A stretch of 64,000 nucleotides of DNA from a virus (IMGVR_UViG_3300047320_000196:21-64020), one strand, 5' to 3'. Shown: positions 132 to 13,991, counted from the stretch's first letter. A program made the numbers and translations. Notes: generated from the sequence alone by a model not told the origin.

Positions 132-188
132 GCACAAAAAAACCGATCCATATGATCGGCTTAAGTGTCTGATTTTACTCAGGAATTA

Positions 189-233
189 TGGTCGGGACGG
201 AGTGATTCGAACACTCGACCCCTAGCACCCCAT
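189..233 (-). repeat. att core, copy 1: 3' half of tRNA-Pro(GGG)
   Basis: Reverse complement ATGGGGTGCTAGGGGTCGAGTGTTCGAATCACTCCGTCCCGACCA gives anticodon loop, T-arm and CCA; 5' half absent. Confidence 0.9.
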
Positions 234-393
234 CTCCTTTTTCATACTTCTTGAAAGCTTTCAAAATTTTACTCTGGAATATTCAAAGCTAGTATTTACT
301 TGAGTTTCAGCGGAGTTCTGCTCCACAAAGGTCCAGTAACGTCCATCAAGAGCCGACGTTTTTGTGGGGGAAAAAGTAGGGGGAACCGATTTT

Positions 394-1050
394 ATGGCCA
401 AAATCACCATCAAAGAACTCGAGTCGCTGACCGCCAACGATGCCGGTCGAATCCTCCGGGAGGATGGCAATCTGGCCGGTCGAATCTCCCTGCGTAAGGA
501 CGGTGTGTCGGTCAGCTTTTTCTATCGGTATCGCTGGGGCGACCAGAACAAAGAGTACTCCTGCGGAACCTGGCCGCGCAAATCCCTGACGGACATCCGC
601 AAGGCGCGCAACCAGGCCCGTGCGCTTATTGATGAGCAGATCAATCCCAACGAGCACAAGAAAACCGCGAAGGTGCAGGCATACGCCGCCGCTAACGTAG
701 AGACCGAACACCTAAAAACAACGAAGGTGCAAACACTGACCGTCCAGGATCTGGTCAAGGCCTAGCTGCTGGATGGTGTCGCGCGTAAAGACGGCAATGC
801 CGAGTTGCAACGACGCTTTAACAAGGACCTTATGCCAGCACTCGGCAAGACCGCAGTGAGCAGCGTCTCCGAACATGATGTCCGGGCGCTGATCCAGGCC
901 GTGGTCAAACGCGGCGCTTACCGGCAGGCCATCAGCTTCTTCGCCGACCTCACCCAGTTGTTCAACTAGGCTAGAAAGCGCCAACTCTGGCGGGCGTTAC
1001 TGGTTGAGGGTGATCCGACTGAACTGGTCGACATCTCCCCCCTGATTGCA
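394..1050 (+). pseudogene. Island (P4-like) tyrosine integrase pseudogene, with arm-binding domain
   Basis: Arm-domain-like segment (VSFFYRYRWGDQNKEYSCGTWP); in-frame TAG at 763-765 and 967-969; catalytic domain missing; right end approximate. Confidence 0.8.
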
Positions 1051-1474
1051 AACCTCCAGTCCTTGAAGAGGGCCGCTTCCTTGATGGAGGTGAACCAGGC
1101 TGGTCAGTGGTTCCTGGACGCAGCTCAACTATCAGCTTGCCTTCATCAAGGCCTTGGCTATGCCCTTGAGCAAAACCCTCTGCCAAGCCTTCGGTTTTAC
1201 CCTCCGGGCGCCCTTCAGTCCGCCCCTCAACGCGGCCCAGTTCCACTCCATGGCCTCTACCCGACTCGAAGCCCTCTCCTACGCCGACCAGGTGCTCAGC
1301 TTTCCAAGCCGAGCGCTGCTTGAAACCTACGGCGTCGAGAATGAGGTTGGCGAGACCACTGAAAAAGCCACCCTTTACCGGCATCACGCTTCTGTCAGGG
1401 ACGGGCGATTTTCCTTCTGCCTCGGCCTGGGCCAGAGGTGATGGGGAATTAGGGTCTGTTGTTGGTGAATCCAC
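971..1474 (-). pseudogene. Truncated gene with EG-rich repeats, possibly the N-terminus of a Pseudomonas UvrD-like protein
   Basis: EGRTEGRPEGKTEG repeats; reading degenerates where it collides with the integrase remnant. Confidence 0.3.
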
Positions 1475-1737
1475 TAGCTGAAGGCACCCTGCTGTCCTAG
1501 AGCGTGCCTGACAGACGTGGCACGCCTTTGTGAAGAAAGGTCAGAGGTTAACACCATAATTGTAACGCCAAGCTTCTAACGCCTGGGTTTGCTCTGCCGG
1601 ATGAAATGCAAACTACGAGGCAGAGGCGCTATGAGAGCGTCTGCGAAGCTATGGCAGGCCAGGGTGTTTTGGATTGCTTTGCCCTGAAAAAGAAGCGTAG
1701 TGTCTACTGCTAACGCCTCACCAACGGAGATGGATCA

Positions 1738-2169
1738 ATGAGCAAAAGTTTTCGTGACCGCATCCAGACAATGAATGCGATGTACAAGCTGCCCATCCAT
1801 GAGGCTCCGCACCTCTTCCCGGATGCAGAAGATCGCCTCCTGAAATTCAAGCGGACGCTGCTCGACGAAGTCGCCGAGATCGATGACATTACTGAGCAGA
1901 TTCGTCGAGGAGACGATGCCATCGATGTTCAGGTCGCCATTGCAGACCTTCTCGGCGACGTCATCGTGTATTGCCGCTCCGAGGCAATGAAGTACGGCAT
2001 CCCTCTTGAAGCCGTACTGGAGCTGATCATGGACAGCAACGAGAGCAAGCTAGGTGCCGATGGCAAGGCTATCTACGATGAGAATGGGAAATTCCTCAAG
2101 GGCCCCAATTACTGGAAACCCGAGCCCCAAATCAAGCAGCTCCTGGCAAGCCTCCCGGCCCAAAAGTAA
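1738..2169 (+). CDS. MazG-like / PRA-PH all-alpha nucleotide pyrophosphohydrolase
   Basis: ExxE (DEVAE), DLLGD, and SNESKLG..G...K..KGPNY..P signature. Confidence 0.85.
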   Translation: MSKSFRDRIQTMNAMYKLPIHEAPHLFPDAEDRLLKFKRTLLDEVAEIDDITEQIRRGDDAIDVQVAIADLLGDVIVYCRSEAMKYGIPLEAVLELIMDSNESKLGADGKAIYDENGKFLKGPNYWKPEPQIKQLLASLPAQK

Positions 2170-2192
2170 CCCCACGTTTCAGAGGTGATAGC

Positions 2193-3335
2193 TTGGCAAT
2201 TAACCACGTGGGGAAGTGCCGGAGCCTGGTTGAGATTGAGGAAATCATCTCCCAGATCGAGTACTCCGACAGCGATACCGTGTTTCGCTTCCCTATAGAC
2301 ACCCTCGGCGCTCGACATAGCCCGATGCATGACGCATCGCGACTGCAGATGGTCGTTACGCTCGCTCGCCAAAAACTCGAAGATGACTATCTGGACATTC
2401 ATCCAAACGCTCAAGAACTGGATGCTCAGCAGGCTGTTTGTGATTACTCACCTGGGATTGCAGGGGTTCGGCTGTCCAAGGGAATACGGATTGGTAGCAA
2501 GGAAATTGATCGCCGAGACGTTCTGACCTTCGCGACCAAAAGAATGCAAGCGATGGATGCTCAAGAGTTTGACGACCTTGTCAAGGGGCGCTGTATAGAC
2601 CTCCTGTGCGTCGGAGGTTCCAAAATCCAGTATCTGAAGCCGCTGTTTTCTTCGCGAGGCAAGGCTAAAGAGAAAGACGGCATGGCCCCAGTGATGCGCA
2701 CGCTAGTGGATCGTACAACGCAGCAAAGCAGGGCCAAAGTACCTGAGTCCCTGGTCGATGCGCTCGCTTTGTTCTCTGCTGAGCTTATTCAAAACACCCA
2801 AGAGCACGCGATCACAGACCATACTGGCAGGCCGTATCTCTCGCATGTCGAGGGGGTGCTGATGGGCTGGACACGGTTTTACGAGTCGACCTTCAAAGAC
2901 GATTTCTCTGGCCACCCCGATCTGAACAAATACTGGAATGATGAAGCTGCTAGAACCGAAACCGGAGCCAAGAGCCTCCGGGCATTCGAGATCAGCTATT
3001 TTGACTCAGGGCCAGGGTTAGTCAGCCGCTTCACTGGCAAGCGCGTGCAAGAGATGTCACTCGAAGATGAACGACGAGCGCTTCTCCGTTGCCTGCAGCA
3101 CAAATCAACGTCGAAATCCCAGACAGCAGCAGGTGAAGGCTTGCCCTCGGTCTTGCAAGAGTTGAGGCAGATCGGCGGGCTGATGAGGATCCGCACGGGA
3201 AGGCTGTCGATGTTCAACGCCTTCACGCCTGGCGATAACCGTGACCTCTTTGCTTTCAATGACTGGACTGAAACCAACCTTTCGCCCGTTCAAGGTGCGG
3301 TCATTTCTATTCTCGTACCGCTGAGGGCTCAGTGA
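2193..3335 (+). CDS. Protein with C-terminal GHKL/histidine-kinase-like ATPase domain
   Basis: N-box ELIQNTQEHA, G1 DSGPGL, G2 GEGL, terminal GAVISILVP; GAGGTG RBS before TTG. Confidence 0.7.
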   Translation: MAINHVGKCRSLVEIEEIISQIEYSDSDTVFRFPIDTLGARHSPMHDASRLQMVVTLARQKLEDDYLDIHPNAQELDAQQAVCDYSPGIAGVRLSKGIRIGSKEIDRRDVLTFATKRMQAMDAQEFDDLVKGRCIDLLCVGGSKIQYLKPLFSSRGKAKEKDGMAPVMRTLVDRTTQQSRAKVPESLVDALALFSAELIQNTQEHAITDHTGRPYLSHVEGVLMGWTRFYESTFKDDFSGHPDLNKYWNDEAARTETGAKSLRAFEISYFDSGPGLVSRFTGKRVQEMSLEDERRALLRCLQHKSTSKSQTAAGEGLPSVLQELRQIGGLMRIRTGRLSMFNAFTPGDNRDLFAFNDWTETNLSPVQGAVISILVPLRAQ

Positions 3336-5533
3336 TGGAACGCTTTTATTCCTGGCGGCACCTGAAACACTGCCCCACGCACGGCAGCATTGAAGCCCTA
3401 GTGCTCTGCTATAAACGCTGCCACCTGACCGAAGGCAATGTGTATACCGATGTAGAGACCGCCCTCAAGAGTGATGCCAATCTTCCCGATTGCGTGTACA
3501 TCGTGGGCTCTACCGAGCAATGCAACACGTTCAAGGCAGCCTGGGATCCGGCCAATCTACACCTGCAAACCATGATCAAGCGCGGCATGAAGGCTGGCTT
3601 TGACTTCGTGAAGCAATACACCTTCGTTGAGTGGGATGGCACAAACTTCAATCAACACGCCCTTGGAGCGCATACGGGCCCTTACAACGTGGATCTGAAG
3701 CTTCTCATAACCCGTGGCGTAAACAGCCTTATCGAGAAGAACAGTGCCATTCACCAGGCCCCCTCTGGCCATGTGTTCAAGCACCCTTCCCAACGCCGGA
3801 ACAAGGTCTTCATCCAAGCAAGGGAAATCGCCTCAGGCGAGGCAGAGTTGTACGTCGTCGCATACTTGATCACGCTATGCCACGGGCAGACCCTGCAAGG
3901 GAGCACCAAGGTTTTCATCGATACCATGGGTATCTATGCTTACGTCAAATGCGCCCTGGCCCTGTGCCGCTCCGAGGCAGAGATAGTCAGCTTCCACTCC
4001 TATGATGAGTTGGAGAAGATCAATCCTCCATCAGATCCCTATTTCTGCATTGTCTCCGCCTCGACGTCCGGAAGCATGGCAAAGAAGATGGCAAGCAGCG
4101 TTTGGGATCCTCAGCGAATCGCCACCATCGTCGATGTGACGTCCCAGGGACGAGCCGGCGACGTAATGGTCGCGCTTGATAATATGGGGGTCGCATTCCC
4201 TGACTTGAAAGTCAGCGACGGCACCCTGATCGAGATCATCGGCGAAAATTTCTCGTCAAAAGCCAAGCCTCCTCGACCAGTCGTTCTCGGACAGCCACAT
4301 ACTCCGAAAGCCTTGGCCGATTTCCATCAGTTTTTTGGCTTTTCGATAAACCCTTTCAATACCCGAGTTGGAACGAAGAGCAAGCTGCTGCAGCTTGATG
4401 TCATCGAGTTGCTGGAACACGCAGAGTTTAAGAAATGGCTCGACGCAGAAATTGACTGGTCATTCCCCCTGACCGTAAGTCACGTTATCCACGCCGATGA
4501 CGAGGCTTCCAAAGCTCTCGCAGTGATCGTCGTGGCTCGCCTGCGCACTCGCTTGGCTGCTGGTTCGTCGATTACGGTGCTTCCATACCACGAACTGGAG
4601 AAGGACAACTGCAAAGACGCCACCGGCGTAGTGATCGTTTCCACCGTCGCCCGAGATGGCGGCGTGCTTCGCGAAATCAGTCGCGATCTGCGTTCGTACA
4701 TCAAAGCGTACATTCCGAGGCATTTTCTTTCCCCGATCGGTATCCCCCAGACGAACGCGTCATGGAACCAATTGCGTATGTTCTTGGTTCGCAACTCCAC
4801 GACCAGGGAGTACGGCTTTTCCAACTGGATACAGCTCCCACTTGGTGAAGACTCCAATGACAACTCTTGGCATCGCTTGATCGAAACTCACAAGGCTCAT
4901 TCGGAACAAAACATCCATGACCTAGGCCTTGAGCACCTGCCCAACACCTCCAACATCCTGCCGTCCCTCGATCTAGCTGGAAAGGCAGCCTTAAGTGCGT
5001 TTCGAGGATTTTTGCTTTCGCCACGAGGCAACTCGCTGCGGCTCTCAGAAGGTTTTCTCTTTTTCGGAAACAAAACCGAGATTGCCAGGCGCTACGCTGA
5101 CGTTGAGCCCAGCATGGTGCACCTCACAATGGCAGCCGTGCTCCAAAACGCCCGGGAACACAAAGATCACGAAAGGCGTCTCTGCCCCAACGGCTACGAG
5201 TCGGTCGTATTGGCCCCAGAGTGCTTCCTCAGATTCAACGAGGCCATCCTGCAAGCGTGCATGCTGAGGGCATGCCACCCAGCGGAGTTGGACTACTCAT
5301 CCAGCCCTGAGCTCAGCAAGGTGATGAAAGAGCTGTTAGTGAAGGTGTTTGCACGTTCGGACAAGGACTTCGGCGACGCAGCCCTTGAGTTCGCTGCTGC
5401 CATCGCCGTAGGCTCGCTTCGGCTGGCGAAAACGGATATGGAAACTCTGCTGGACGATGCGCTGAAGCAGCACGCTGGCAATACGTCCGAATTGCTCGGG
5501 ATGCTTGTGCTGGCCAAGCAAGCTAATCACTAG
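3335..5533 (+). CDS. Large protein with two degenerate type I PRTase-like domains
   Basis: GHVFKHPS OPRTase-like hood; PRPP-loop-like CIVSASTSGS and VIVSTVARDGG lacking the acidic pair; TGATG overlap with upstream gene. Confidence 0.6.
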   Translation: MERFYSWRHLKHCPTHGSIEALVLCYKRCHLTEGNVYTDVETALKSDANLPDCVYIVGSTEQCNTFKAAWDPANLHLQTMIKRGMKAGFDFVKQYTFVEWDGTNFNQHALGAHTGPYNVDLKLLITRGVNSLIEKNSAIHQAPSGHVFKHPSQRRNKVFIQAREIASGEAELYVVAYLITLCHGQTLQGSTKVFIDTMGIYAYVKCALALCRSEAEIVSFHSYDELEKINPPSDPYFCIVSASTSGSMAKKMASSVWDPQRIATIVDVTSQGRAGDVMVALDNMGVAFPDLKVSDGTLIEIIGENFSSKAKPPRPVVLGQPHTPKALADFHQFFGFSINPFNTRVGTKSKLLQLDVIELLEHAEFKKWLDAEIDWSFPLTVSHVIHADDEASKALAVIVVARLRTRLAAGSSITVLPYHELEKDNCKDATGVVIVSTVARDGGVLREISRDLRSYIKAYIPRHFLSPIGIPQTNASWNQLRMFLVRNSTTREYGFSNWIQLPLGEDSNDNSWHRLIETHKAHSEQNIHDLGLEHLPNTSNILPSLDLAGKAALSAFRGFLLSPRGNSLRLSEGFLFFGNKTEIARRYADVEPSMVHLTMAAVLQNAREHKDHERRLCPNGYESVVLAPECFLRFNEAILQACMLRACHPAELDYSSSPELSKVMKELLVKVFARSDKDFGDAALEFAAAIAVGSLRLAKTDMETLLDDALKQHAGNTSELLGMLVLAKQANH

Positions 5534-5753
5534 AATGACCCGCTGAAAGTCGGCTTGCCGGCCATGGCATGTCGAATACGGAGAGACCAAGCAGTAGTTC
5601 AGGCAATGAAGTGGCAAATTCGATGGGCCCAATCAACGGCTCACTAATCTTGCTGGGCTACGGATCTGCGAGCCAGACGGTGGCGTCCGTTGGGACAGGC
5701 AGCATGAGCTGCCTGGTCTCGTTAGGCTGAAAACTCCTAGCGCGGCTGATGGA

Positions 5754-5865
5754 TCAATTGAGCCACGACTCAACAGTTCCCGCACCATACTGTACTTTCC
5801 AGGCCTTAAGACCTTTGTGATTTCCCCCTTTGCTCTCTATAAATTCACCCGTGTGGGGATTTACC
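5754..5865 (-). pseudogene. C-terminal DNA-binding fragment of an MvaT/H-NS-family protein
   Basis: NPHTGEFIESKGGNHKGLKAWKVQYGAGTVESW is the MvaT-family signature; oligomerisation domain absent. Confidence 0.8.
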
Positions 5866-6074
5866 TGATAGTGCCCCGGCAACATCGATTCGACAGTGCA
5901 CCACGGCAATTTTTCGGTCTGAGCGATGGCGTCCACACTGTACAGTGGACGTCATGCATGCCATCGGAGCTGATTCGTCGTAAGCAGTGACGATCGCGTT
6001 GATCTAACCAGAGACGGTGACCTCTCCAGGCCATCCTCCGCTGAGCCACCAATTGAGCAGTGCAAGGATTCGCG

Positions 6075-7682
6075 ATGCCCAGATACCTCAGTAACAGCGC
6101 AATACGTCTTTTGGAAGCGAGCCAAGAATCTTTGGCCTTGGCGCTGCATTGCCTGGGCACTCCAAATCGGGGAAGCCTGAGAGTTGAGGTAGCTCGATAC
6201 TCCCCCGCGATTGGATTGATCGGAGCCGCCGCTGAGCAGGCTTTGGCTGCAATTATCGTTCAGGTTCGGGGCGATGAGGCTCTGGCTGCGTCCCCCACCC
6301 AGTACAAAAGCGCGCGACAGATTTTGTCGGACATGAGGGATTTACTCCGCGCGCCCATTCCTGCCAGCTCTTTCCTGACCGCAGGCGTAGCCGACCCCGC
6401 TCAACACCGCGAGTCGATCCTGCAGGCGTCAGAAGGATTTTCTGTGCTTTTCACCTACCGGGCGACCGGGCTCCATGCTGGCCTTGGTTTGTCTCGCACA
6501 GTGACACTGAAACAAGCCGTGAAGGTTCACAGTTTCCTTGAGCTCCTATCCAGGTCAACTCGTATCCGCGCCTATATGGATCGGTTGCCGATACCACCAG
6601 ATGAAGTCATCGACCAGACTGTATTGATTGATGACCTCATTCAAAAATTCCAAAGCACCGATGCAATTACCGAGCGGGTCAACGCCTTACGATCTTTGTT
6701 CCTGATCCTCCCCGAAGTCCCCCCAGAAGCACCGGAGTGGCTTGAAGCGTTTGACCGCTCCGTAGTCTCGCCACGCCCTGCTGACATCACTTTGCTTTTG
6801 GAAACACTTGAACGCGCGGCACCAATGAGGTTCCGTCGCATGAATGCAGGGGGCCAAGCACTACCAGTAGTTGTCCGGCCAAACGACCCAAATGCGTTAC
6901 CTATCGCCTTGCAGGACATGCGCCAAGCCTTTGGCCACGCGCGTGAGCAGTTTGGCGCAGACGTGGGAAATGCAAATGGACGACTCGATCAAGGTATTCT
7001 GGATCTGCCCCCAGAGTCCTTCTTGCTCGATTTGTGCCTCCAAGGCCCTGAGCAGCTACGCGAGACTCTGGATCGGCAAACGCTCACCGGTCAAGAGGTG
7101 TGGCCTTTCGTGGCTACTGCATTGAACCAGCAAGGAACAGAGCGCCCATACTGGTTCTTGGTATCGATGGTCGACGACATCGGTCAGCTAATCGGCCAGC
7201 TTCGCAGGGCTTCGGCGGTATCGGCTCAGGGACAGTTCAAAGAACGCTGTACCGCAGCCATCAGAGCCCTTGAGGCCAAAAGACAGGAGCGCACACTTCC
7301 GCCAGCTACTGAAATTGCGACCTTTACCGTCACACAATCTGCTGCGGCTGAAACCGCACGAGAAAGCATCCCCGACTCGATGGAGCGCAACGAAGGCACT
7401 GTTCGTGAAGCCTCTTTGGAAGCAATGCCGCCACTAGCCGCGTTATATGCCGGCGAATTCACTGCCGGCCAGGCTTTTCCTGCGGTGTATGCGTCCGAGA
7501 ATCCAGATTCTAAGAAATACTGGACTCGCCAGTTGCTCATAGCAGCGACCGATGCCAGCGACCGCTCAATGCTCATCACTGCCCTGCGAGACCCTGAATT
7601 CGCCAACCTAAAGACGGATGCTCGAAAAGCGCTGCGCCTGGTAGATATTCTGACCTACGGGCCGAATATCGAACTAGGGTGA
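6075..7682 (+). CDS. Protein with putative N-terminal HEPN (DUF3644-like) domain
   Basis: Helical N-terminus with Rx4H motif (RATGLH); AAGGA RBS; 535 aa. Confidence 0.5.
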   Translation: MPRYLSNSAIRLLEASQESLALALHCLGTPNRGSLRVEVARYSPAIGLIGAAAEQALAAIIVQVRGDEALAASPTQYKSARQILSDMRDLLRAPIPASSFLTAGVADPAQHRESILQASEGFSVLFTYRATGLHAGLGLSRTVTLKQAVKVHSFLELLSRSTRIRAYMDRLPIPPDEVIDQTVLIDDLIQKFQSTDAITERVNALRSLFLILPEVPPEAPEWLEAFDRSVVSPRPADITLLLETLERAAPMRFRRMNAGGQALPVVVRPNDPNALPIALQDMRQAFGHAREQFGADVGNANGRLDQGILDLPPESFLLDLCLQGPEQLRETLDRQTLTGQEVWPFVATALNQQGTERPYWFLVSMVDDIGQLIGQLRRASAVSAQGQFKERCTAAIRALEAKRQERTLPPATEIATFTVTQSAAAETARESIPDSMERNEGTVREASLEAMPPLAALYAGEFTAGQAFPAVYASENPDSKKYWTRQLLIAATDASDRSMLITALRDPEFANLKTDARKALRLVDILTYGPNIELG

Positions 7683-7719
7683 CCACGATCCGTTCAACGA
7701 CATCGGAGCCCCCCTGCGC

Positions 7720-9096
7720 ATGCCTCGAACCCAGCAAAACCTCACCAGTCTGCGAGATACCTTCAGTCAGATCTTGGGCAACCAGAAAGACCACTACACG
7801 GATACACGGATCCCTGAATTGCTTTTCAGGCTAGGGCTGGATGATTGCACTGAGTACAGCTCCAAAAGGCAACACCTTGAGAAAGCAGTAGAAGCTTCGA
7901 GTGATGCTCAAATGTTGGCTGCCGCTCAGACGGCCTTGGAACTGATCGGCTTTGCGGCTCATGAGCGAGACCAGCTTCAAGAGCTGGTGTGGGACGATGG
8001 AACAGCGCCTGTCATCCCCGGTCGTTACCGAAGAGAGCTGGCAGAAAGGCTCAACCCCATCGAGCTTTTCATAGACAGGGCTGCTTTTGAACACGTGCTC
8101 GGTGAGTTCTGGCAAATCGACACGATGTCGTTTGTGAATTTGCTGCGACCGACCCCGACACTTCGCCAAGAAATTGTCCGCCACTACATCGAAAATCCCG
8201 ATTGGGATGCGGTGACGATCTTCGACAAGCTCGGAGCGTTTCAGTCCTCGCATGCCCGATTTGGCCGATTCGTCGAAGCCTTGGCTTCCTCGCGGGTATT
8301 GCCCAGCGAACCCGCTCAGCGAAAATTCATTGAGATCGTCAACGATACCCTCAAAACGTGTGGAGTCCACATTGTCGTCGGGGTGGGGGACGATGCCTTC
8401 CTGACGGCCTCCTTGGCTTACGTAGGATCAGCCAAGCAGTCCTCCCCCAAGAACCTGATCTTCGCCTCCACCACGAAGCCAGATCTGCGACTCGGCAACG
8501 CCCTGGACAACGATATAGAGGTGATGTCCGACCCAACGGATATCCTGATCTATGACCGACCTATCGGAAGCACCGGCCTCTTGTGGCGCGACCTACAGGC
8601 TTGGTATGCCCAAACCTATGACATCGAGGAAGGCCAGGCCAAAAATCGCCTATATCGGCGCCTGGAGGCCTGCCTGCCTAAATCATCGCCCCCTCAAGCG
8701 CTAGCCTTCAGCAGCTTTTTCAAGGCCTTCACGACACTCATTCCTGAACTTCCAGTCTTACTGCCCGAGGTCTGGTTTCACTGGGATCCCCTGACGGTCT
8801 CACGGCGCGGCAAGGAGGCATTGCTCAGGTCGCGCATGGACTTCCTTCTACTATTGCCGGGCGGGGTGCGGGTTGTCATCGAGATTGATGGCAAACACCA
8901 CTATTGCGATGCAACCGGACGCTCAAGTCCCCACCTCTACGCCGAGATGATGGCAGCTGACAGGGCTCTAAGGCTGGTGGGGTATGAGGTCTATCGCTTC
9001 GGTGTTCACGAGCTTCAGCAGCCTAATGCCGAGGAGGTGCTGATAATATTCTATCGCTCGCTGTTTGAACGTTACTCATTGCTACCGGCACCGTGA
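7720..9096 (+). CDS. AbiJ-N-terminal-domain protein with C-terminal Vsr/DUF559-like endonuclease
   Basis: KNLIFAS..KPDL; RMDFLLLLP...VIEIDGKHHY; DRALRLVGYEVYRFG. Confidence 0.75.
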   Translation: MPRTQQNLTSLRDTFSQILGNQKDHYTDTRIPELLFRLGLDDCTEYSSKRQHLEKAVEASSDAQMLAAAQTALELIGFAAHERDQLQELVWDDGTAPVIPGRYRRELAERLNPIELFIDRAAFEHVLGEFWQIDTMSFVNLLRPTPTLRQEIVRHYIENPDWDAVTIFDKLGAFQSSHARFGRFVEALASSRVLPSEPAQRKFIEIVNDTLKTCGVHIVVGVGDDAFLTASLAYVGSAKQSSPKNLIFASTTKPDLRLGNALDNDIEVMSDPTDILIYDRPIGSTGLLWRDLQAWYAQTYDIEEGQAKNRLYRRLEACLPKSSPPQALAFSSFFKAFTTLIPELPVLLPEVWFHWDPLTVSRRGKEALLRSRMDFLLLLPGGVRVVIEIDGKHHYCDATGRSSPHLYAEMMAADRALRLVGYEVYRFGVHELQQPNAEEVLIIFYRSLFERYSLLPAP

Positions 9097-9336
9097 TTCA
9101 CTGATCCCATAAGCCGAAGATCGCTTAGCCTGAGCGCTGAAAAACTTTCCGCGAAGTAATTGATCAACGCCGATGCTTGCGGCCTCTTCCTGGATTCATA
9201 TTGCTCCTCCAAATCCACAGATGGCACCATGTGGAAGACCTGATCATCACGATAGAATTTCAGCGAGACGCTGGGATGCTCACCCTCGCCCCCCGAAGGC
9301 TCACATTTTCAAAATCTACCAAGGAAATCGAAATTC

Positions 9337-10365
9337 ATGGACAGTGTTTTTGAAGGTACCTTCCCTACTGACGCGAGCCCAGAGGAAATCTTCCCGCAAA
9401 ACGCGCTCTCAATATTGCCATTCGTTCCGGAGGCCATATCAGCCTGGGCGTCAGGAAACGACCTGCATACCTTCATTCACAAACTACTTGAAGGTACGGG
9501 TTATGAAGATCAGGCAGATGAAAGGCTGGAGGGAGCGATCAACCAAGCCCTGGCTTTGGCAGACCACTTTGCAGAGACCGCAAGTCATTCAATGCCGGCG
9601 CCTGGTGCACGAACCCAAGCACCCGTGATGGTCGACTTTGAGCATGACCCTGTGTTCGGACGGTTAGCCAAGACATTGATAGCTTGGCAAGAGACCATCG
9701 GCAACGTCTTGTCCGAAGCAGGATATTTTTCTCTTTCACACATGCTTGAAACCCGGTCTGATCTGATGTGCTCTGTACAGCTGGCGGGCGCGCTGTACTA
9801 CCGTCAGTCCATGCAAGTGCTGCGCGGATTCATCGAAAGCGTCATTTTACCAATCCATTTTTGCAGACGGCCCGAGCTGTTCAAGAAATGGAAATCTAAC
9901 GAGTACCAAGCGCCTTCGATACGTGGCAAGGACGGAGTTCTATCGCGCCTGAAAAAAGATGGGATCATTTCGACAGAGCTGGAAACTACCATCTCCGATG
10001 CCTACAGCCTGCTCAATGGGTATATCCATGGTAGCGAAGAGAAACTGAACAACACCGGCCTGGATCGAGGCGAGTGGGAAGGTCATACATTCCAACAGGC
10101 GCGGTTCGAGGCATGGGCGCAGGTCTTTGCCTCACTCATCGAGGCCTCCCTCCCTCTCGTCAAAATCAATTTATCTCAGTGGGCAACAGCCAGGTTAGAT
10201 TGGGAATTGTTCTGTAGCGTATGCCATGGTCATGACCTCGAAACCAAGCAGCAAAGAATTGACCCACCGATGACTCAGCATCAGTGTAAGCAATGCAGTC
10301 ATACCTTCTGGAGGAATGAGGACGGCCAGCAATTCGTGCATGCAACCGTAGAATTTCTCGACTGA
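9337..10365 (+). CDS. HEPN-like protein with C-terminal zinc ribbon
   Basis: LRGFIE and YSLLNGYIHG HEPN-like motifs; CSVC...CKQC. Confidence 0.5.
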   Translation: MDSVFEGTFPTDASPEEIFPQNALSILPFVPEAISAWASGNDLHTFIHKLLEGTGYEDQADERLEGAINQALALADHFAETASHSMPAPGARTQAPVMVDFEHDPVFGRLAKTLIAWQETIGNVLSEAGYFSLSHMLETRSDLMCSVQLAGALYYRQSMQVLRGFIESVILPIHFCRRPELFKKWKSNEYQAPSIRGKDGVLSRLKKDGIISTELETTISDAYSLLNGYIHGSEEKLNNTGLDRGEWEGHTFQQARFEAWAQVFASLIEASLPLVKINLSQWATARLDWELFCSVCHGHDLETKQQRIDPPMTQHQCKQCSHTFWRNEDGQQFVHATVEFLD

Positions 10366-10668
10366 TCATTTCATGCGCTCAGGGCTGTGGAGAAGACCTC
10401 AACAGCCCGCCATGCAAACAGACTTTTTAGCTGACCTGCACGGGGATAGCCCAAGCCAAGCCCACGAGTTAACATTTGGGCGTTATTAGCTCTCCACGAC
10501 TCCATGACTCGGGACTCAAGACTCAGGGCTCCCATGACGCTGATCGGGAAGGTTTAAGCTTTGGCCTGTACCTTCACCCAAACCAATCATTCGTGTTTAC
10601 AGAGAGCCGAAAGCTAGTAAGTCGATCACCGCGCCATGTAAGGGTGACCGACAAACTATACAGTCGGA

Positions 10669-12486
10669 TCAGCCTCGTAGTGGGAAGAAGCCGTATCTCC
10701 CACTCTTTCTGCTTTTCGTGAAGTGCTGATAATTCAAATGAGGGATGAGCGCCATATCAGGCTCCTTGTTCTCAAATACAATCACTTGAGAATCTTTGAA
10801 GTTGTCGGCAATATCCTGATAGAACGCATAAATCACGTCCGCTGCCACTTCCTCATCATCTTCCTCAGGCTCCGGATCCCCTTCTTTGTATGTCGTCAGT
10901 GGCGAATCAAGCACCACAAAGCCAGGGTGGCGCCCAGAGAGTTTTAGTAGATTCATCAGCCCTAGAGCAAATGCAGAAGACGCGATGGCTCGATACCCCT
11001 TGCCAAAATTGCCTCTCGCACTCCCACCAATGGTGATGTCCCGTGCTTTGAAGTTGAATTCCACCGGGGCGTGATTCGGGAAACTCCAGCGCTGCAAGAT
11101 ATCCTGAATCTCTTTAACCAAAGGCTTGGCAGACTCCTCAAAGCTTTCAGGGGTGTATTTGTTTTGCTCCTCAAGCAGCAATACACCCAGCTTTTTCAGT
11201 TCCCCTCTTAGCTTGGCCTTATTCGTAACGTACTTATCCAGCGCCGAGTGATCCTGGTTGAGGCATGAGGCTAGCTCCTTCAGATCGCTCACCAGCTGCA
11301 CTGAGCTCTGAATCTCTGTGGAGATCAACTTCTCCAGTGCTGCGATGGACGTTTTGGTAGTCTCAGCGGTGGAAGTATTCCGTTCAATCGCTGCCGCCAG
11401 GGATCCCTGTGCCTCCCCAAGCTCATGGAGGTTTTTCGAAATTCGCTCCAGCTCGAAGGAAACCCCCTTCTTGATGTCATCGACATCGGTTGTGCATGAT
11501 TCGGAGTCGAAATGATTGCCACAGGTTGGACAAAGCACCGCGTCTGACTCGTCGAGTAAGACTGCCGCTTGCTCAATTCCCTGTAGACGCTGGCGGTCTG
11601 ATTCATATTTCTGGCCAAGCATGCCAAACCGCCCCAGTAGGGCCCTATCTTCAGCAATTTTTCCTTCGACCACTTCCAGTTCGGAGATATGGCTGGCCTT
11701 TTGGGTGAATAGCCCTTCACTCGAATGAAAAGCGCCTTCCAGCTCAGTTTCAGCCACCTTGAGCCGAAGCTTAACTTGGGTCGTAAAAGAACTGAGCTTC
11801 TGGAGTTCAAGCGCCTCAGCCGCGTCGTCACCTGGATAGAATTGCTTGATAATGTCTTCGACAGCAGCTGCCCTGTGCCTCAATGCCCCTTTTGACGCCA
11901 ACTCCTTTTTAGCCTGTTTAACCCCGGTGTCGTCTTTCCCCGTCAGCAACAGCTTCAGAATGGATGTCTCCATAGTGCGCTCATCTTTCTGACCCGTACC
12001 CAGTGGAGAGTACTCAGCCACGATTCGCGTTTCATCCATCAAAAATACTTTTTCGAAATCACGAAGAGAGAACGAAGCGTTATTGAGAGAGGCTGTACCT
12101 TTCAACAACAGCTTTCCATTCAACCCCAACCTATCCAGGAATTGATTGGAGATCGAATTCATCTTTGTAGGGTTATGTTTCACCCCCAGGGTTTGAACCT
12201 TCCCCTCTTCATCGTAAAAAGTAGGCTTAGAGCTTTCTGAAAGGTGCCTCTCAATCGTGAAGGAGCGCCCATCATCGTGCACAAACTTAACCTTGAGAGT
12301 GGTGTAGCCCTGCGACTCGTTGATAGGCTTTGGAGGCGTATTTGCACCAAGGGCAAACTTCAGGCACTGAACGATGTAGGACTTACCAGTGTTGGAGCCG
12401 CCTTGAACAACGTTCGCACCCTTCTCAAAATAAACAGCGGCATCTGCACGGTCAGGGCCACTCACGACAACGCTTTCAATATACAT
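10669..12486 (-). CDS. lmuB: Lamassu / ABC-3C SMC-like ATPase
   Basis: Walker A GGSNTGKS, coiled coils with CPTC hook, FGKG signature, Walker B FVVLDSP. Confidence 0.85.
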   Translation of the reverse strand: MYIESVVVSGPDRADAAVYFEKGANVVQGGSNTGKSYIVQCLKFALGANTPPKPINESQGYTTLKVKFVHDDGRSFTIERHLSESSKPTFYDEEGKVQTLGVKHNPTKMNSISNQFLDRLGLNGKLLLKGTASLNNASFSLRDFEKVFLMDETRIVAEYSPLGTGQKDERTMETSILKLLLTGKDDTGVKQAKKELASKGALRHRAAAVEDIIKQFYPGDDAAEALELQKLSSFTTQVKLRLKVAETELEGAFHSSEGLFTQKASHISELEVVEGKIAEDRALLGRFGMLGQKYESDRQRLQGIEQAAVLLDESDAVLCPTCGNHFDSESCTTDVDDIKKGVSFELERISKNLHELGEAQGSLAAAIERNTSTAETTKTSIAALEKLISTEIQSSVQLVSDLKELASCLNQDHSALDKYVTNKAKLRGELKKLGVLLLEEQNKYTPESFEESAKPLVKEIQDILQRWSFPNHAPVEFNFKARDITIGGSARGNFGKGYRAIASSAFALGLMNLLKLSGRHPGFVVLDSPLTTYKEGDPEPEEDDEEVAADVIYAFYQDIADNFKDSQVIVFENKEPDMALIPHLNYQHFTKSRKSGRYGFFPLRG

Positions 12487-12920
12487 CAGACCACCCTGTC
12501 AATTTTATAAATAGTGCGCCGTTGAGCAGCGAGAAAATCAACATTAGCCTCGACCCAAGAAACACGTCTTCTGAAATCCACATGGTATTCAGTACTCAAC
12601 TTGGCGGCAAACACACTACCCGCACTGGTGATAGAGTATCGAACACCTTTCTCATCAACTTGGGAAGTAATCAAACCTTTAGCGGTAAATAGTTTTATGG
12701 CGCTTGGGAAAATTTCTCGCCTACGCACCAGTTCGGCAAGTCGATTCAAAAGGACTGGATGCAGGCTTGCATCCCCTTGAAAGTCACTACTATAAATAGA
12801 GGCATAGTCAAAGAATATAAGTTCATCGAGATCAAGCTGCCGGGCTAAGCCTGCAAGCAACAGAACAATGCGTGCACCAACTTCCACAGGGCTGTTGTAC
12901 AAATCCTTTGAGCTCGTCAT
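12486..12920 (-). CDS. lmuC: Lamassu / ABC-3C middle component
   Basis: LYNSPVEVGAR..LL and DY motifs; coupled between effector and ATPase. Confidence 0.8.
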   Translation of the reverse strand: MTSSKDLYNSPVEVGARIVLLLAGLARQLDLDELIFFDYASIYSSDFQGDASLHPVLLNRLAELVRRREIFPSAIKLFTAKGLITSQVDEKGVRYSITSAGSVFAAKLSTEYHVDFRRRVSWVEANVDFLAAQRRTIYKIDRVV

Positions 12921-13991
12921 CTATTTCTTAATCCATTTAAACTTTAGGTCATTCACCAGTTGATGACATAGCCCCTTTCGATCGGAGGTCTGCAAGAAAT
13001 GCCGAAGTGGATGAGAGTCATATGGAATATTAACGGACTGCGTGCTTACTTCGAGAAAACGTTGATACCCATCATCGAATTTCTTACGCACCACGCTGTG
13101 CAAGCCTTCGTGGCACTCACCTTTGAGGCTTTCATAGCATCCTGTAGGAAAAGCATCGCGCGAAAATATCTCCAGTGACTCAGCGCTGAAAAAGTTAATC
13201 CGCGCTCGCTCAAGATCTTCCTTATACTCAGTGTCCATGACGCTACTGAATGAATACTCTGCACCATCGGCATCAGAGAACGCATCTAAAAGCGCATCAA
13301 TATAAATTTTCTCATTATCACCAACAGCGCTGGGCTCAGGCTTCCGAACCTGCGGTCGCTTAAGATGATAGCTTCCAAACCGCGTCGTGTGATATGGCGT
13401 CAGGGCGTGCCTATCAATTAACTCCTGTGAAGACATTTCATCAACAAATGAAAAATCAAGGGTATTTATATAATCCAACAGACCACCCTCAAGAGGAATG
13501 GACTCCTTCTTCGTAATCTTATCCTTACATACCTTATCCCAACGCTTAATGATCTCAGCCTTGATGCGAGACTTCTTGGACAGCATATCGATGCAATCAG
13601 AGCTGCAGCCTTTAGGGGAAACAAAGCGGTACTCACGCGGCAGGGTGTAATCCTCCCTCCACGTGTAGTAAACCAGCTTACCCAGCTCCCCAACTACGTT
13701 TGCTACGCTCAGTTTATCTTTGTAGTGCTTGCATTGGTAATTGTCCCACCCCGTCGCATGCCGCGCGATGACATCGCGCCCCTTGTCTCCCGCACCAGCA
13801 CAGCGAGTGACCGATTCGTAGTCTTTACCTAAGTAAGAGACGAACTCCAGCGTAAAGATTTCCCAAGTATCCGCAGACATGATCTGCAGGCGATCCAGGG
13901 GATGAACTGTTTCACCTTTTTCTACATCCAGTGCTGTGAGCTCGAATTCCGGGGGTGGAGGGAGCTTAATGGCATTTTCACCAAAAGACAT
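12921..13991 (-). CDS. lmuA: Lamassu / ABC-3C effector: PD-(D/E)xK (Mrr/Cap4-like) nuclease plus C-terminal domain
   Basis: GAGDKGRDV...YQCKHY nuclease motif; C-terminal KGLCHQLVND..W. Confidence 0.8.
   Translation of the reverse strand: MSFGENAIKLPPPPEFELTALDVEKGETVHPLDRLQIMSADTWEIFTLEFVSYLGKDYESVTRCAGAGDKGRDVIARHATGWDNYQCKHYKDKLSVANVVGELGKLVYYTWREDYTLPREYRFVSPKGCSSDCIDMLSKKSRIKAEIIKRWDKVCKDKITKKESIPLEGGLLDYINTLDFSFVDEMSSQELIDRHALTPYHTTRFGSYHLKRPQVRKPEPSAVGDNEKIYIDALLDAFSDADGAEYSFSSVMDTEYKEDLERARINFFSAESLEIFSRDAFPTGCYESLKGECHEGLHSVVRKKFDDGYQRFLEVSTQSVNIPYDSHPLRHFLQTSDRKGLCHQLVNDLKFKWIKK

What the first reader, a model, noticed from the sequence alone, without database searches (positions are those of the whole stretch)
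1738..5533. Candidate undescribed defence system: MazG-like pyrophosphohydrolase + GHKL-like ATPase + tandem degenerate PRTase
Seen: three co-oriented genes (23-bp gap, then a TGATG overlap), all intact in a decaying island beside Lamassu and Abi/HEPN-like genes. Gene 1 has intact MazG/PRA-PH acidic motifs. Gene 2 has GHKL N/G1/G2 boxes but no sensor TMs and no cognate response regulator. Gene 3 has two PRTase-like repeats whose PRPP loops lack the acidic pair. Established: MazG-fold enzymes hydrolyse (d)NTPs, nucleotide depletion is a known antiphage strategy, and non-catalytic PRTase folds can act as nucleotide sensors (PyrR, PurR). Inference: a nucleotide-sensing switch (PRTase sensor, ATPase transducer) coupled to a nucleotide-destroying effector. 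I do not recognise it as a named system.
Basis: partly seen in the sequence, partly recalled or inferred. Interest (0 to 1): 0.85.

Follow-up and report, generated by a model that had tools for sequence, protein, structure and literature searches.

The report
Nucleotide-linked candidate phage defence operon
Three linked genes (a small nucleotide pyrophosphatase, an ATPase of the histidine-kinase type and a large protein with two disabled phosphoribosyltransferase folds) form a conserved mobile unit whose two larger genes are already listed, untested, as a candidate phage-defence pair, and how it works is still unknown.

Summary
In detail: three intact co-oriented genes at 1738-5533, with a 23-bp gap and then a TGATG overlap. 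Fold and motif checks confirm all three domain calls. Gene 1 is a MazG-type all-alpha NTP pyrophosphohydrolase. Gene 2 has a C-terminal GHKL fold with invariant N, G1 and G2 boxes. Gene 3 has two type-I PRTase folds whose PRPP loops lack the acidic pair.

It is not wholly undescribed. Genes 2 and 3 match PADLOC candidates PDC-M65A and PDC-M65B, one of 145 untested "guilt-by-embedding" candidates. Gene 1 matches no PADLOC model.

Gene 1 is linked to the pair in 24 of 35 genome loci and evolves far more slowly than the pair. The pair also occurs without it. In three Rhizobiaceae plasmids thyX takes its place, and in one metagenome protein a dimeric dUTPase domain is fused to the gene-3 homologue. 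About half of the assessable gene-1 relatives lie elsewhere.

My reading: a GHKL / pseudo-PRTase nucleotide-sensing switch that works with an exchangeable enzyme of the dUTP/dUMP/dTMP branch. The mechanism is inferred, and no experiment on this system was found. This is a new three-gene variant of a catalogued candidate.

The parts
1738..2169 (+). Gene 1: 143-aa MazG-type all-alpha NTP pyrophosphohydrolase, the accessory enzyme of this clade.
   Evidence: Pfam MazG E 0.022 and MazG-like E 0.045, both below the curated cut-off. PDB 3nl9 'putative NTP pyrophosphohydrolase' E 2.8e-5, and 7.3e-6 with the profile; 2yxh 'MazG-related' E 0.008. 61 of 143 columns are invariant in 23 sequences. Sources name relatives 'pyrophosphatase' or 'NTP pyrophosphatase'.
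1867..1959 (+). Acidic motifs of gene 1 (E44, E47, D49 ... D70, D74).
   Evidence: All are invariant in alignment A3. Their assignment as metal ligands is recalled from the MazG family and was not tested.
2193..3335 (+). Gene 2: 380-aa protein matching PADLOC PDC-M65A. It has an N-terminal alpha/beta domain (1-147, unassigned) and a C-terminal GHKL domain.
   Evidence: PADLOC PDLC04764 E 1.6e-28. No Pfam or NCBIfam hit. Model pLDDT 91, pTM 0.92.
2634..3332 (+). GHKL (Bergerat) ATP-binding fold, residues about 148-380. N box at 2781-2810, G1 box at 3003-3017, G2 box at 3132-3140.
   Evidence: In the VIA wide search all 50 rows shown are GHKL proteins. The top row is SpoIIAB 1l0o (Z 6.7, rmsd 4.6, 138 aligned); histidine-kinase CA domains score Z 5-6. 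Foldseek 4r39 E 6.4e-4. E197, N201, D271, G273, P274, G275, G314 and G316 are invariant in 30 sequences.
3335..5533 (+). Gene 3: 732/733-aa protein matching PADLOC PDC-M65B, translationally coupled to gene 2.
   Evidence: PADLOC PDLC04765 E 7.6e-53. No Pfam or NCBIfam hit. Model pLDDT 77, pTM 0.44. TGATG overlap.
3689..4219 (+). PRTase fold 1 (residues about 120-296, OPRT-like). PRPP-loop equivalent at 4040-4081, with S242-A243 where the acidic pair should be.
   Evidence: VIA: 3qw4_C Z 12.0 (model 123-296), 4rv4_B Z 11.6, 2yzk_C Z 11.6. S242, A243, S244, T245 and G247 are invariant in A1. S242 is still invariant, and A243 and S244 at least 90% conserved, in 49 distant sequences.
4223..4273 (+). 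Near-invariant linker (IEIIGENFSSKAKPP) that the model leaves disordered.
   Evidence: pLDDT is below 50 for residues 290-328, yet I300, E301, G304, E305, F307, K310, K312, P313 and P314 are invariant. F307 is invariant and G304 at least 90% conserved in distant relatives. Any role, such as a phospho-acceptor or catalytic loop, is inference.
4301..4852 (+). PRTase fold 2 (residues about 324-507; APRT/HGPRT/PyrR/PurR-like). PRPP-loop equivalent at 4628-4669, with S-T where the acidic pair should be.
   Evidence: VIA: 1hmp_A Z 12.6, 1l1r Z 12.6 (rmsd 3.1, 146 aligned); PurR 1p4a Z 11.3; PyrR 1xzn Z 11.1. D442 and G443 invariant.
4859..5530 (+). Conserved C-terminal helical domain of gene 3 (residues about 510-733), fold unassigned.
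   Evidence: Many invariant columns (R608, G621-S624, R634, N636, Q641, R646, E652-S656 and others). R608, R646, E652 and S662 are invariant in distant relatives. The Atlas feature search gave nothing at or above 0.9.
364..765 (+). Context: integrase remnant (arm-binding domain only) at the island's left edge.
   Evidence: Pfam Arm-DNA-bind_3 E 9.3e-11.
7720..9096 (+). Context: AbiJ_NTD3 protein.
   Evidence: Pfam PF18860 E 3.3e-31.
10669..13991 (-). Context: Lamassu LmuB (10669-12486) and LmuA (12921-13991).
   Evidence: PADLOC LmuB E 1.6e-141 and LmuA E 5.2e-102.

Best explanation
The three genes form one operon and are a three-gene variant of the PADLOC candidate defence pair PDC-M65.

The core is a complex of protein A (gene 2) and protein B (gene 3); that they form a complex is inferred from translational coupling. 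A is a GHKL ATPase or Ser/Thr-kinase-like protein with no histidine-kinase phospho-acceptor. B is a fixed four-domain scaffold whose two type-I PRTase folds have lost the acidic PRPP-motif pair. These folds most likely act as binding sites for a nucleotide monophosphate, PRPP or a related ligand. ATP binding, hydrolysis or phosphotransfer by A would switch the complex.

Gene 1 is an enzymatically conserved MazG-type NTP pyrophosphohydrolase that travels with the pair in this clade. In other branches thyX or a dimeric dUTPase takes its place. The system's chemistry therefore most likely concerns the dUTP/dUMP/dTMP (or modified pyrimidine dNTP) branch of the deoxynucleotide pool. The enzyme would either withhold such a precursor from a phage or make the dNMP ligand that B senses. 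Bulk destruction of NTPs is less likely.

Shown here: the folds, motifs, linkage, third-gene exchange and mobile/defence context. Inferred: complex formation, ligand, switch, substrate and antiphage activity.
For: - Identity of the pair: PDC-M65A E 1.6e-28 and PDC-M65B E 7.6e-53. Distant pairs from Rhizobium, a P. aeruginosa plasmid, Nitrotoga and Microbacterium hit the same two models.
- Folds: GHKL with invariant N/G1/G2 boxes. Two PRTase folds at Z 11.4-12.6, with S-A and S-T in place of the acidic pair.
- Coupling: A and B overlap or abut here and in annotated plasmids: 4-nt overlap in L118, 1-nt overlap in L119, L120 and L122, 1-3 nt gaps in L117, L121, L123 and L127.
- Linkage of gene 1: present in 24 of 35 gene-3-anchored genome loci; directly upstream on the same strand in 23 and directly downstream of gene 3 in L033. 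In 5 of 5 triad genomes the only gene-1 relative is the one in the triad.
- Slower evolution of gene 1: its identity stays at 64-80% where A and B fall to about 40%, and is 66% in L033 where A and B are 23% and 27%.
- Exchange of the third gene: an intact thyX (Pfam Thy1 E 4.7e-56, RHR motif) lies directly upstream of A-B in 3 plasmids with different flanks. dUTPase_2 (E 4.4e-23) is fused after the B homologue in P0413.
- Fixed B architecture: 129 of the 150 best representatives are 690-780 aa.
- Context: Lamassu and AbiJ here; Gabija in 4 of the 105 nearest flanking ORFs scanned; Qat next to the pair on pBJ86; TIR and dGTPase on the Rhizobium plasmid; transposases, integrases and ICE genes.
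- Origin of the name: PDC models derive from genes embedded in BREX, DISARM or type I RM systems (passages read).
Against: - No experiment on PDC-M65 was found, so defence itself is unproven. Another PDC pair (M63) showed no activity when tested in its native host.
- The pyrimidine reading rests on 3 related thyX plasmids and one single-member metagenome protein from a 3.8-kb contig, which could be a gene-calling fusion.
- Gene 1's substrate is unknown. hhalign found no direct similarity between gene 1 and the dUTPase domain of P0413.
- Gene 1 relatives at about 70% identity lie away from any A/B in 24 of 48 assessable loci, so the family is not specific to the system.
- Many pairs have no nucleotide enzyme beside them.
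- A PRTase-like retron effector with only one acidic residue in its motif is still active, so loss of catalysis in B is not proven.
- No effector-like domain (nuclease, TIR, pore) was found in A or B, so the output of pair-only systems is unexplained.
Confidence: 0.4

Rival explanations
1. One reading: B senses nucleotides, A transduces, and MazG is the effector that aborts infection by destroying (d)NTPs in bulk.
For: Gene 1 is tightly linked to the pair (24 of 35 loci) and has an intact acidic motif. A module that is swapped at a fixed position or fused to the sensor's C-terminus is what effectors often look like. Nucleotide depletion is a known defence strategy (bioRxiv 10.1101/2021.04.26.441389; search listing and abstract start only).
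Against: Eight loci have an intact pair without gene 1, and 0 of 5 such genomes hold a relative anywhere. ThyX, a biosynthetic enzyme, takes the same place. Near-identical gene 1 relatives stand alone in 24 of 48 assessable loci without any regulator pair, which is hard to square with a toxic enzyme. Gene 1 does not co-diverge with A and B.
Confidence: 0.15
2. Gene 1 is a passenger. The functional system is the two-gene PDC-M65 pair, and the MazG-type gene (like thyX elsewhere) is an auxiliary metabolic gene of the mobile element that merely sits upstream.
For: PADLOC models only A and B. Pair-only loci are common. The gene 1 family occurs in phages (60 records), in a prophage-like locus (L100, DUF2303) and alone in varied neighbourhoods.
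Against: Position, strand and short gap are kept across Pseudomonadales, Burkholderiales, Neisseriales and Nitrotoga, although the flanks differ. In 5 of 5 triad genomes the triad copy is the only one. On the tree, linked copies cluster (8 label changes against 34.3 in shuffles). Three different enzymes of one pathway beside or fused to the pair is unlikely by chance.
Confidence: 0.15
3. B is catalytically active in a non-canonical way and consumes PRPP or phosphoribosylates a nucleotide, and gene 1 pulls the reaction by hydrolysing the product. This resembles HisG/HisE in histidine synthesis (recalled), or ShosT's PRTase plus pyrophosphatase.
For: PRTase effectors exist in defence. ShosT couples PRTase and PPase (PMC11961720, abstract and section 7 read). 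[quoted passage not shown] The ribose-5-phosphate part of loop 1 (S-T-S-G) is retained and invariant.
Against: ShosT toxicity needs D331/D332, and both B loops lack any acidic residue at those positions. MazG-type enzymes are not inorganic pyrophosphatases (recalled). thyX variants do not fit this scheme.
Confidence: 0.1
4. It is not an immune system. It could be a mobile-element module that regulates or safeguards thymidylate/dUTP metabolism, or an addiction module.
For: No toxic effector domain was recognised in A or B. The third genes are ordinary nucleotide-metabolism enzymes. No experimental support for defence was found.
Against: The PDC-M65 models come from genes embedded in BREX, DISARM or type I RM. 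The neighbours are Lamassu, AbiJ, Gabija, Qat, TIR and dGTPase. A and B diverge fast while the enzyme is conserved, as in sensor-driven arms races.
Confidence: 0.15

Closest known systems
PADLOC PDC-M65 (A and B), one of 145 untested 'phage defence candidates' found by guilt-by-embedding (Payne et al., bioRxiv 10.1101/2024.01.29.577857; passages read)
   Same: Genes 2 and 3 match its two models. The gene order A then B is the same, with overlapping or abutting genes, and the B architecture is the same across 1008 representatives.
   Different: The window's copy is divergent: the best matched stretches cover A 147-378 and B 358-715. It carries a third gene that no PADLOC model recognises. It lies beside Lamassu and AbiJ, not inside BREX, DISARM or RM-I. 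The paper's supplementary tables, which may define M65 further, were closed.
ShosTA (ShosT: pyrophosphatase + PRTase toxin)
   Same: It pairs a PRTase fold with a pyrophosphate-cleaving enzyme in a phage-defence setting. Its PRTase is APRT-like.
   Different: ShosT needs the D331/D332 pair and binds PRPP, whereas B lacks the pair in both folds. ShosT's hydrolase is a Rossmann-type inorganic PPase fused to the PRTase, not an all-alpha MazG-type enzyme. There is no GHKL partner, and the antitoxin ShosA is absent here.
Retron-Eco11 (type III-A3) PRTase-like effector
   Same: A PRTase-like protein with a non-standard PRPP motif is used in defence, and its output is altered nucleotide metabolism through PRPP depletion.
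   Different: It has a single PRTase fold plus a winged helix, and it is controlled by a reverse transcriptase and msDNA. It has no GHKL, no tandem fold and no MazG.
GHKL Ser/Thr kinases and ATPases (SpoIIAB, RsbW, histidine-kinase CA domains)
   Same: Gene 2 residues 148-380 share the fold and the N, G1 and G2 boxes.
   Different: No Pfam HATPase_c hit. The N-terminal half has no DHp-type conserved histidine. There is no sigma factor, STAS partner or response regulator beside it.
Nucleotide-pool defences (dCTP deaminase, dGTPase; AvcD deoxycytidylate deaminase)
   Same: Possibly the same logic, manipulating a dNTP pool. A dGTPase gene lies next to the Rhizobium thyX-A-B unit.
   Different: No homology. 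Those are single enzymes acting on canonical dNTPs. Here the enzyme is exchangeable, and the conserved part is a non-catalytic-looking pair. These papers were seen only as search listings with abstract starts.

Membership tests
PADLOC PDC-M65 | Protein matching model PDC-M65A (PDLC04764) | tested here: met
   Gene 2: E 1.6e-28, 97.7 bits, residues 147-378.
PADLOC PDC-M65 | Protein matching model PDC-M65B (PDLC04765) | tested here: met
   Gene 3: E 7.6e-53, 177.8 bits, two stretches, best 358-715.
PADLOC PDC-M65 | A and B adjacent and co-oriented | tested here: met
   TGATG overlap. A lies upstream of B in 32 of 35 genome loci (the other three are cut or decayed) and in 11 of 11 plasmid/viral loci.
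PADLOC PDC-M65 | Demonstrated antiphage activity | not testable with these tools
   The PDCs are described as untested. 0 papers hold 'PDC-M65'.
GHKL ATPase/kinase superfamily (gene 2) | Bergerat fold | tested here: met
   All 50 rows shown by the VIA wide search are GHKL proteins. The top is Z 6.7 (rmsd 4.6, 138 aligned); the Z values are modest. Foldseek E 6.4e-4.
GHKL ATPase/kinase superfamily (gene 2) | N box (E...N), G1 (DxGxG) and G2 (GxG) motifs | tested here: met
   E197, N201, D271, G273, G275, G314 and G316 are invariant in 30 sequences. Naming them as these boxes is from recall.
GHKL ATPase/kinase superfamily (gene 2) | Match to a curated sequence model (Pfam HATPase_c or similar) | tested here: not met
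   No Pfam or NCBIfam family at E up to 1. The PDB profile search gave nothing relevant.
Two-component histidine kinase (gene 2) | DHp domain with a conserved phospho-accepting His, and a cognate response regulator | tested here: not met
   No invariant His in residues 1-147 (H45 varies to Y or R). No receiver-domain gene among the neighbours scanned.
Type I phosphoribosyltransferase (gene 3) | PRTase core fold | tested here: met
   Two copies: residues 120-296 (Z 11.4-12.0) and 324-507 (Z up to 12.6). Foldseek probability 1.00 to OPRT and APRT.
Type I phosphoribosyltransferase (gene 3) | PRPP motif with two adjacent acidic residues | tested here: not met
   Loop 1 has S242-A243 (invariant) and loop 2 has S-T. 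The position of the motif was read from the sequence pattern and fold, not from a residue-level structural alignment.
Type I phosphoribosyltransferase (gene 3) | Match to the Pfam Pribosyltran model | tested here: not met
   No Pfam family at E up to 1. The PDB profile search returned 0 hits.
MazG / all-alpha NTP pyrophosphohydrolase (gene 1) | Sequence match to the family | tested here: inconclusive
   Pfam MazG 15.5 bits against a cut-off of 22, and MazG-like 14.4 against 27. However, PDB 3nl9 E 2.8e-5 (7.3e-6 with the profile), 2yxh E 0.008 and 2q73 E 0.0079. Phage relatives are annotated as NTP pyrophosphohydrolases.
MazG / all-alpha NTP pyrophosphohydrolase (gene 1) | Conserved acidic metal-binding residues on two helices | tested here: met
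   E44, E47, D49, D70 and D74 are invariant. Their role is recalled, not tested.
ShosTA | Catalytic Asp pair in the PRTase, a fused type III PPase, and a ShosA antitoxin | tested here: not met
   The Asp pair is absent. No PADLOC ShosT or ShosA hit.

The most novel reading that the evidence does not exclude
A previously unrecognised class of nucleotide-pool immunity. A fast-evolving GHKL ATPase / tandem pseudo-PRTase complex reads a deoxypyrimidine nucleotide signal (dUMP, dTMP or a phage-specific modified form). It works with an exchangeable enzyme of that pathway (MazG-type pyrophosphohydrolase, ThyX or dimeric dUTPase). The outcome is either to deny phages that use uracil or hypermodified thymidine or cytidine their precursors, or to force canonical thymidine into their DNA.
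Probability: 0.12. Interest if true: 0.85.

Novelty: new variant of a known kind. Interest (0 to 1): 0.6.

Why it matters
PDC-M65 is so far only a pair of HMMs with no assigned folds, partners or mechanism.

This work assigns the folds: a GHKL domain and two disabled PRTase domains. It shows the family is large, with 1008 clusters at 50% identity, and has a fixed architecture. It also links the pair to three different enzymes of the dUTP/dUMP/dTMP branch.

That turns an anonymous candidate into a testable hypothesis about immunity acting on the pyrimidine deoxynucleotide pool. It also gives clear mutants to make: the N-box Asn, the loop S-A-S, the linker serines and the MazG acidic motif. If defence is confirmed, it would add a new sensor type, a pseudo-enzyme PRTase, to the known antiphage systems.

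Tried and rejected
- Pfam and NCBIfam gave nothing for genes 2 and 3. The only NCBIfam hit for gene 1 (mtrH, 17 bits against a cut-off of 271) is noise.
- PDB profile searches with A1 and A2 found nothing relevant.
- The Atlas feature search on B residues 508-733 gave only unnamed clusters below 0.9. The N-terminal domains of A (1-147) and B (1-110) and the C-terminal domain of B stay unassigned.
- hhalign of the gene 1 profile against P0413 found no similarity to its dUTPase domain.
- The promoter/terminator scan of 1400-6200 found 0 promoter-like sites, and terminators at the shuffle level. There are no tRNA genes in the window.
- The viral-contig scan with distant B relatives gave 1 locus (L124), which has an A-B pair and no gene 1.
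- Neighbours of solo gene 1 copies share no recurrent partner family. Ten were scanned in Pfam: one DUF2303, one weak DUF722, one LysR and seven with nothing. Seven were scanned in PADLOC with no hit.
- The 323-aa protein upstream of the pair in L013 has only a weak TIR-effector match (E 5e-5). The two proteins upstream of the pair in L118 have no Pfam or PADLOC hit.
- Expression: no RNA holder was listed. The two wastewater runs labelled RNA-Seq were rated 'probably DNA' and gave only short contigs, so they say nothing about transcription.
- Literature: 0 papers for 'PDC-M65'. Searches on MazG + phosphoribosyltransferase + defence, MazG + HATPase + PRTase, PRTase + GHKL + MazG and ThyX + dUTPase + defence found no description of this gene set.
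- DefensePredictor (PMC13092281, passages read) lists MazG, dUTPase and HATPase among unvalidated predicted defence domains. Its figure 6F and supplements were not visible, so I cannot exclude that one of its eight examples is this system.
- The supplementary tables of Payne et al. were closed and may say more about PDC-M65.
- The careful tree did not finish, so the quick tree was used. It has 143 columns for 104 rows, and 52 of 91 inner branches are unresolved.
- The flank scans list only the 25 commonest families. I therefore cannot give the share of flanking ORFs with any defence hit, and no enrichment statistic was computed.

Full report
**Observation.** The window holds three co-oriented ORFs at 1738-2169 (143 aa), 2193-3335 (380 aa) and 3332-5533 (733 aa).
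- Gene 1 has a GGAG ribosome-binding site before its ATG.
- Gene 1 stops at 2169. Gene 2 starts at TTG 2193 behind GAGGTG, which gives the 23-bp gap.
- The gene 2 stop TGA (3333-3335) overlaps ATG 3335 (TGATG). Homologues start MxRxYSW, so ATG 3335 rather than GTG 3332 is the likely start of gene 3.
- None of the three proteins has a 19-residue window with Kyte-Doolittle hydropathy of 1.6 or more.

**Family scans.**
- Pfam gives only sub-threshold MazG (E 0.022) and MazG-like (E 0.045) hits for gene 1, and nothing for genes 2 and 3. NCBIfam gives nothing useful.
- PADLOC-DB v2 matches gene 2 to PDC-M65A (E 1.6e-28) and gene 3 to PDC-M65B (E 7.6e-53). Gene 1 matches no PADLOC model at E up to 1.
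- According to passages of Payne et al. (bioRxiv 10.1101/2024.01.29.577857), the PDCs are 145 untested single- and multi-gene candidates. They derive from genes embedded in BREX, DISARM or type I RM systems and were then added to PADLOC.
- The string 'PDC-M65' occurs in 0 papers of the library.
The pair is therefore catalogued but uncharacterised.

**Folds.**
- *Gene 2.* The model has pLDDT 91 and pTM 0.92. Residues about 148-380 match only GHKL proteins: all 50 rows of the Foldseek-independent search, led by SpoIIAB 1l0o (Z 6.7, rmsd 4.6, 138 aligned), with histidine-kinase CA domains at Z 5-6, and Foldseek 4r39 at E 6.4e-4. The Z values are modest. However, E197, N201, D271-x-G-P-G275 and G314-x-G316 are invariant in 30 homologues, which fits the N, G1 and G2 boxes (naming recalled). 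The N-terminal 147 residues have no invariant histidine, so this is not a classical histidine kinase.
- *Gene 3.* The model has pLDDT 77 and pTM 0.44. It contains two PRTase folds. Residues about 120-296 are OPRT-like (3qw4_C Z 12.0, 4rv4_B Z 11.6). Residues about 324-507 resemble APRT, HGPRT, PurR and PyrR (1hmp_A and 1l1r at Z 12.6) (Foldseek probability 1.00). In the loops that correspond to the PRPP motif, the acidic pair is replaced by S242-A243 (invariant, followed by S-T-S-G) and by S-T. S242 remains invariant in 49 relatives of 21-28% identity. A stretch the model leaves disordered (290-328) carries a near-invariant IEIIGENFSSKAKPP motif. The C-terminal helical domain is highly conserved but unassigned.
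- *Gene 1.* It matches PDB 3nl9 'putative NTP pyrophosphohydrolase' (E 2.8e-5; 7.3e-6 with a profile) and the MazG-related 2yxh (E 0.008). Sources name its relatives pyrophosphatase or NTP pyrophosphatase. Phage relatives of 28-58% identity are annotated as NTP pyrophosphohydrolases.

**Linkage, anchored on gene 3.** A scan of one genome per species found 35 loci.
- By tblastn and HMMs, gene 3 is present in 35, gene 2 in 32 and gene 1 in 24.
- In 23 of the 24, gene 1 is directly upstream on the same strand, with 10-153 nt to the start of the gene 2 match. In L033 (Nitrotoga) it lies 44 nt downstream of gene 3.
- Of the 11 loci without gene 1, L005 is decayed (no gene 2), and L024 and L030 are cut by contig ends. 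Eight have an intact pair (L013, L022, L023, L027, L029, L032, L034, L035). L030 and L032 are two contigs of one assembly.
- Gene 1 stays 64-80% identical where genes 2 and 3 are about 40-50%. It is 66% in L033, where they are 23% and 27%.
- 61 of 143 gene 1 columns are invariant in 23 sequences.

**Linkage, anchored on gene 1.** The gene 1 family is much larger than the pair appears to be: 2599 clusters in the word-indexed search, against 115 for gene 2 and 245 for gene 3. That tool favours conserved proteins.
- Of the 80 best metagenome loci (out of 377 confirmed), 24 have gene 2 directly downstream, and 22 of those also have gene 3.
- Another 24 have at least 2.5 kb downstream but neither gene; 9 of these also have at least 3.6 kb upstream.
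- The remaining 32 are too short to judge.
- The solo copies lie in varied neighbourhoods with no recurrent partner.
- On a quick, poorly resolved tree, linked copies cluster (8 label changes against 34.3 in shuffles) but are not one clade.
- In 5 of 5 genomes with a triad, the triad copy is the only family member. In 0 of 5 genomes with a pair-only locus is there any family member.
Gene 1 is therefore an accessory gene that arrives with the pair. The pair does not need it.

**The third gene is exchangeable.** Distant pairs on plasmids still hit PDC-M65A/B.
- In three Rhizobiaceae plasmids with different flanks (NZ_CP071635, NZ_CP049218, NZ_CP053441), thyX lies directly upstream of A-B on the same strand.
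- That thyX is a full Thy1-family protein (E 4.7e-56) with the RHR motif. It is 89-90% identical among the three plasmids, while their B proteins are 69-74% identical.
- The exhaustive profile search for B found 1008 representatives at E up to 1e-3 and 533 at E up to 1e-30. 129 of the 150 listed are 690-780 aa.
- One of the two longer proteins, P0413 (992 aa), carries a dUTPase_2 domain (E 4.4e-23, residues 777-940) after the B part. It is a single-member cluster from a 3.8-kb contig, so a gene-calling fusion cannot be excluded. Even so, the dUTPase would lie directly downstream.
- Seven plasmid loci have the pair with no annotated nucleotide enzyme beside it.

**Context.**
- The window is an IMG/VR virus record.
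- Positions 179-11545 are 99% identical to loci in three Pseudomonas species, so the island moved recently as a block.
- Downstream here lie an AbiJ_NTD3 protein and Lamassu LmuA/LmuB. Upstream lies an integrase remnant.
- Among the 105 nearest flanking ORFs of 32 genome loci, GajA and GajB models each hit 4 members. Pfam finds transposases, resolvases, integrases, OLD-type TOPRIM, AAA_15 and ICE genes.
- On pBJ86 the pair abuts the Qat system. On the Rhizobium plasmid it lies between a TIR protein and a dGTPase.
This fits a defence/mobile setting. I computed no enrichment statistic.

**Mechanism.** What is shown is the anatomy and the linkage. The rest is inference.
- A and B are translationally coupled and co-vary in presence, so they probably form a complex.
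- B's PRTase folds have lost the residues that ShosT needs for toxicity (D331/D332; PMC11961720 section 7). They keep the phosphate-binding part of loop 1. The nearest structural matches of fold 2 include the regulators PurR and PyrR. A ligand-sensing role is therefore the most economical reading.
- A lacks a histidine-kinase acceptor. Its best match is the Ser kinase and anti-sigma factor SpoIIAB. It may hydrolyse ATP or phosphorylate B, and the invariant disordered Ser-rich linker is a candidate site.
- The third gene is MazG-type, ThyX or a dimeric dUTPase. That points to the dUTP/dUMP/dTMP node, or to modified pyrimidine dNTPs, rather than to bulk NTP destruction.
- Whether the enzyme is the output, makes the ligand or protects the host cannot be decided here.
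It is weakened by the pair-only loci, the thyX replacement and the many unregulated solo relatives.

**Comparison with known systems.** PRTase folds are used as effectors in ShosTA and Retron-Eco11 (PRPP depletion). Neither has a GHKL partner, a tandem fold or a MazG-type gene. DefensePredictor names MazG, dUTPase and HATPase among unvalidated predicted defence domains, but I could not see its figure. No paper found by five searches describes this gene set.

**Verdict.** The locus is a three-gene variant of the catalogued, untested candidate PDC-M65, with newly assigned folds and a new, testable link to pyrimidine deoxynucleotide enzymes.

**Limits.**
- Paper supplements were closed.
- There was no multimer prediction and no fold for gene 1 or for single domains.
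- There was no evidence on expression.

Noticed in passing
window 179-11545: The whole left island (integrase remnant, the three genes, a 540-aa unknown protein, the AbiJ_NTD3 protein, a 342-aa protein and the start of LmuB) is 99% identical to loci in P. uvaldensis, P. cedrina and P. monachiensis. It has therefore moved between species very recently. The window itself is an IMG/VR virus record rated complete.
   Followed up: partly
L064:6528-8252, L050:5958-7871, L067:2651-4375 (related 574-637-aa proteins); L076:6591-7787; L083:451-1827: Solo copies of the gene 1 family often sit next to sizeable proteins with no Pfam or PADLOC hit. One such family recurs in three loci directly downstream on the same strand. 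These could be other unknown partners of this pyrophosphohydrolase.
   Followed up: partly
L119 (NZ_CP071635) 1097-11785: A Rhizobium plasmid stretch holds a TIR-domain protein, thyX-A-B, a dGTP triphosphohydrolase, a WYL protein and a RecB-like nuclease side by side. It looks like a dense nucleotide-themed defence island.
   Followed up: no
L013:3768-4739: In a Gallionellales MAG the pair lacks gene 1, and the gene directly upstream encodes a 323-aa protein with a weak match to a PADLOC TIR effector model (E 5e-5).
   Followed up: no
L126 (Spirosoma plasmid) 4091-6417: Here the B homologue is annotated as two overlapping genes (138 aa and 637 aa). This is either a natural split or a frameshift.
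   Followed up: no
window 6060-7682 and 9337-10365: Two intact proteins (540 aa and 342 aa) between the operon and Lamassu have no Pfam or PADLOC hit. The first travels with the AbiJ_NTD3 gene in Pseudomonas sp. TH10 (87% identical DNA).
   Followed up: partly
flanks of genome loci L004-L035 (alignment A4): One flanking protein carries a strong MazG_C domain (E 1.5e-77), which DefensePredictor lists as a predicted nucleotide kinase among unvalidated defence domains. I did not find out which locus it belongs to.
   Followed up: no
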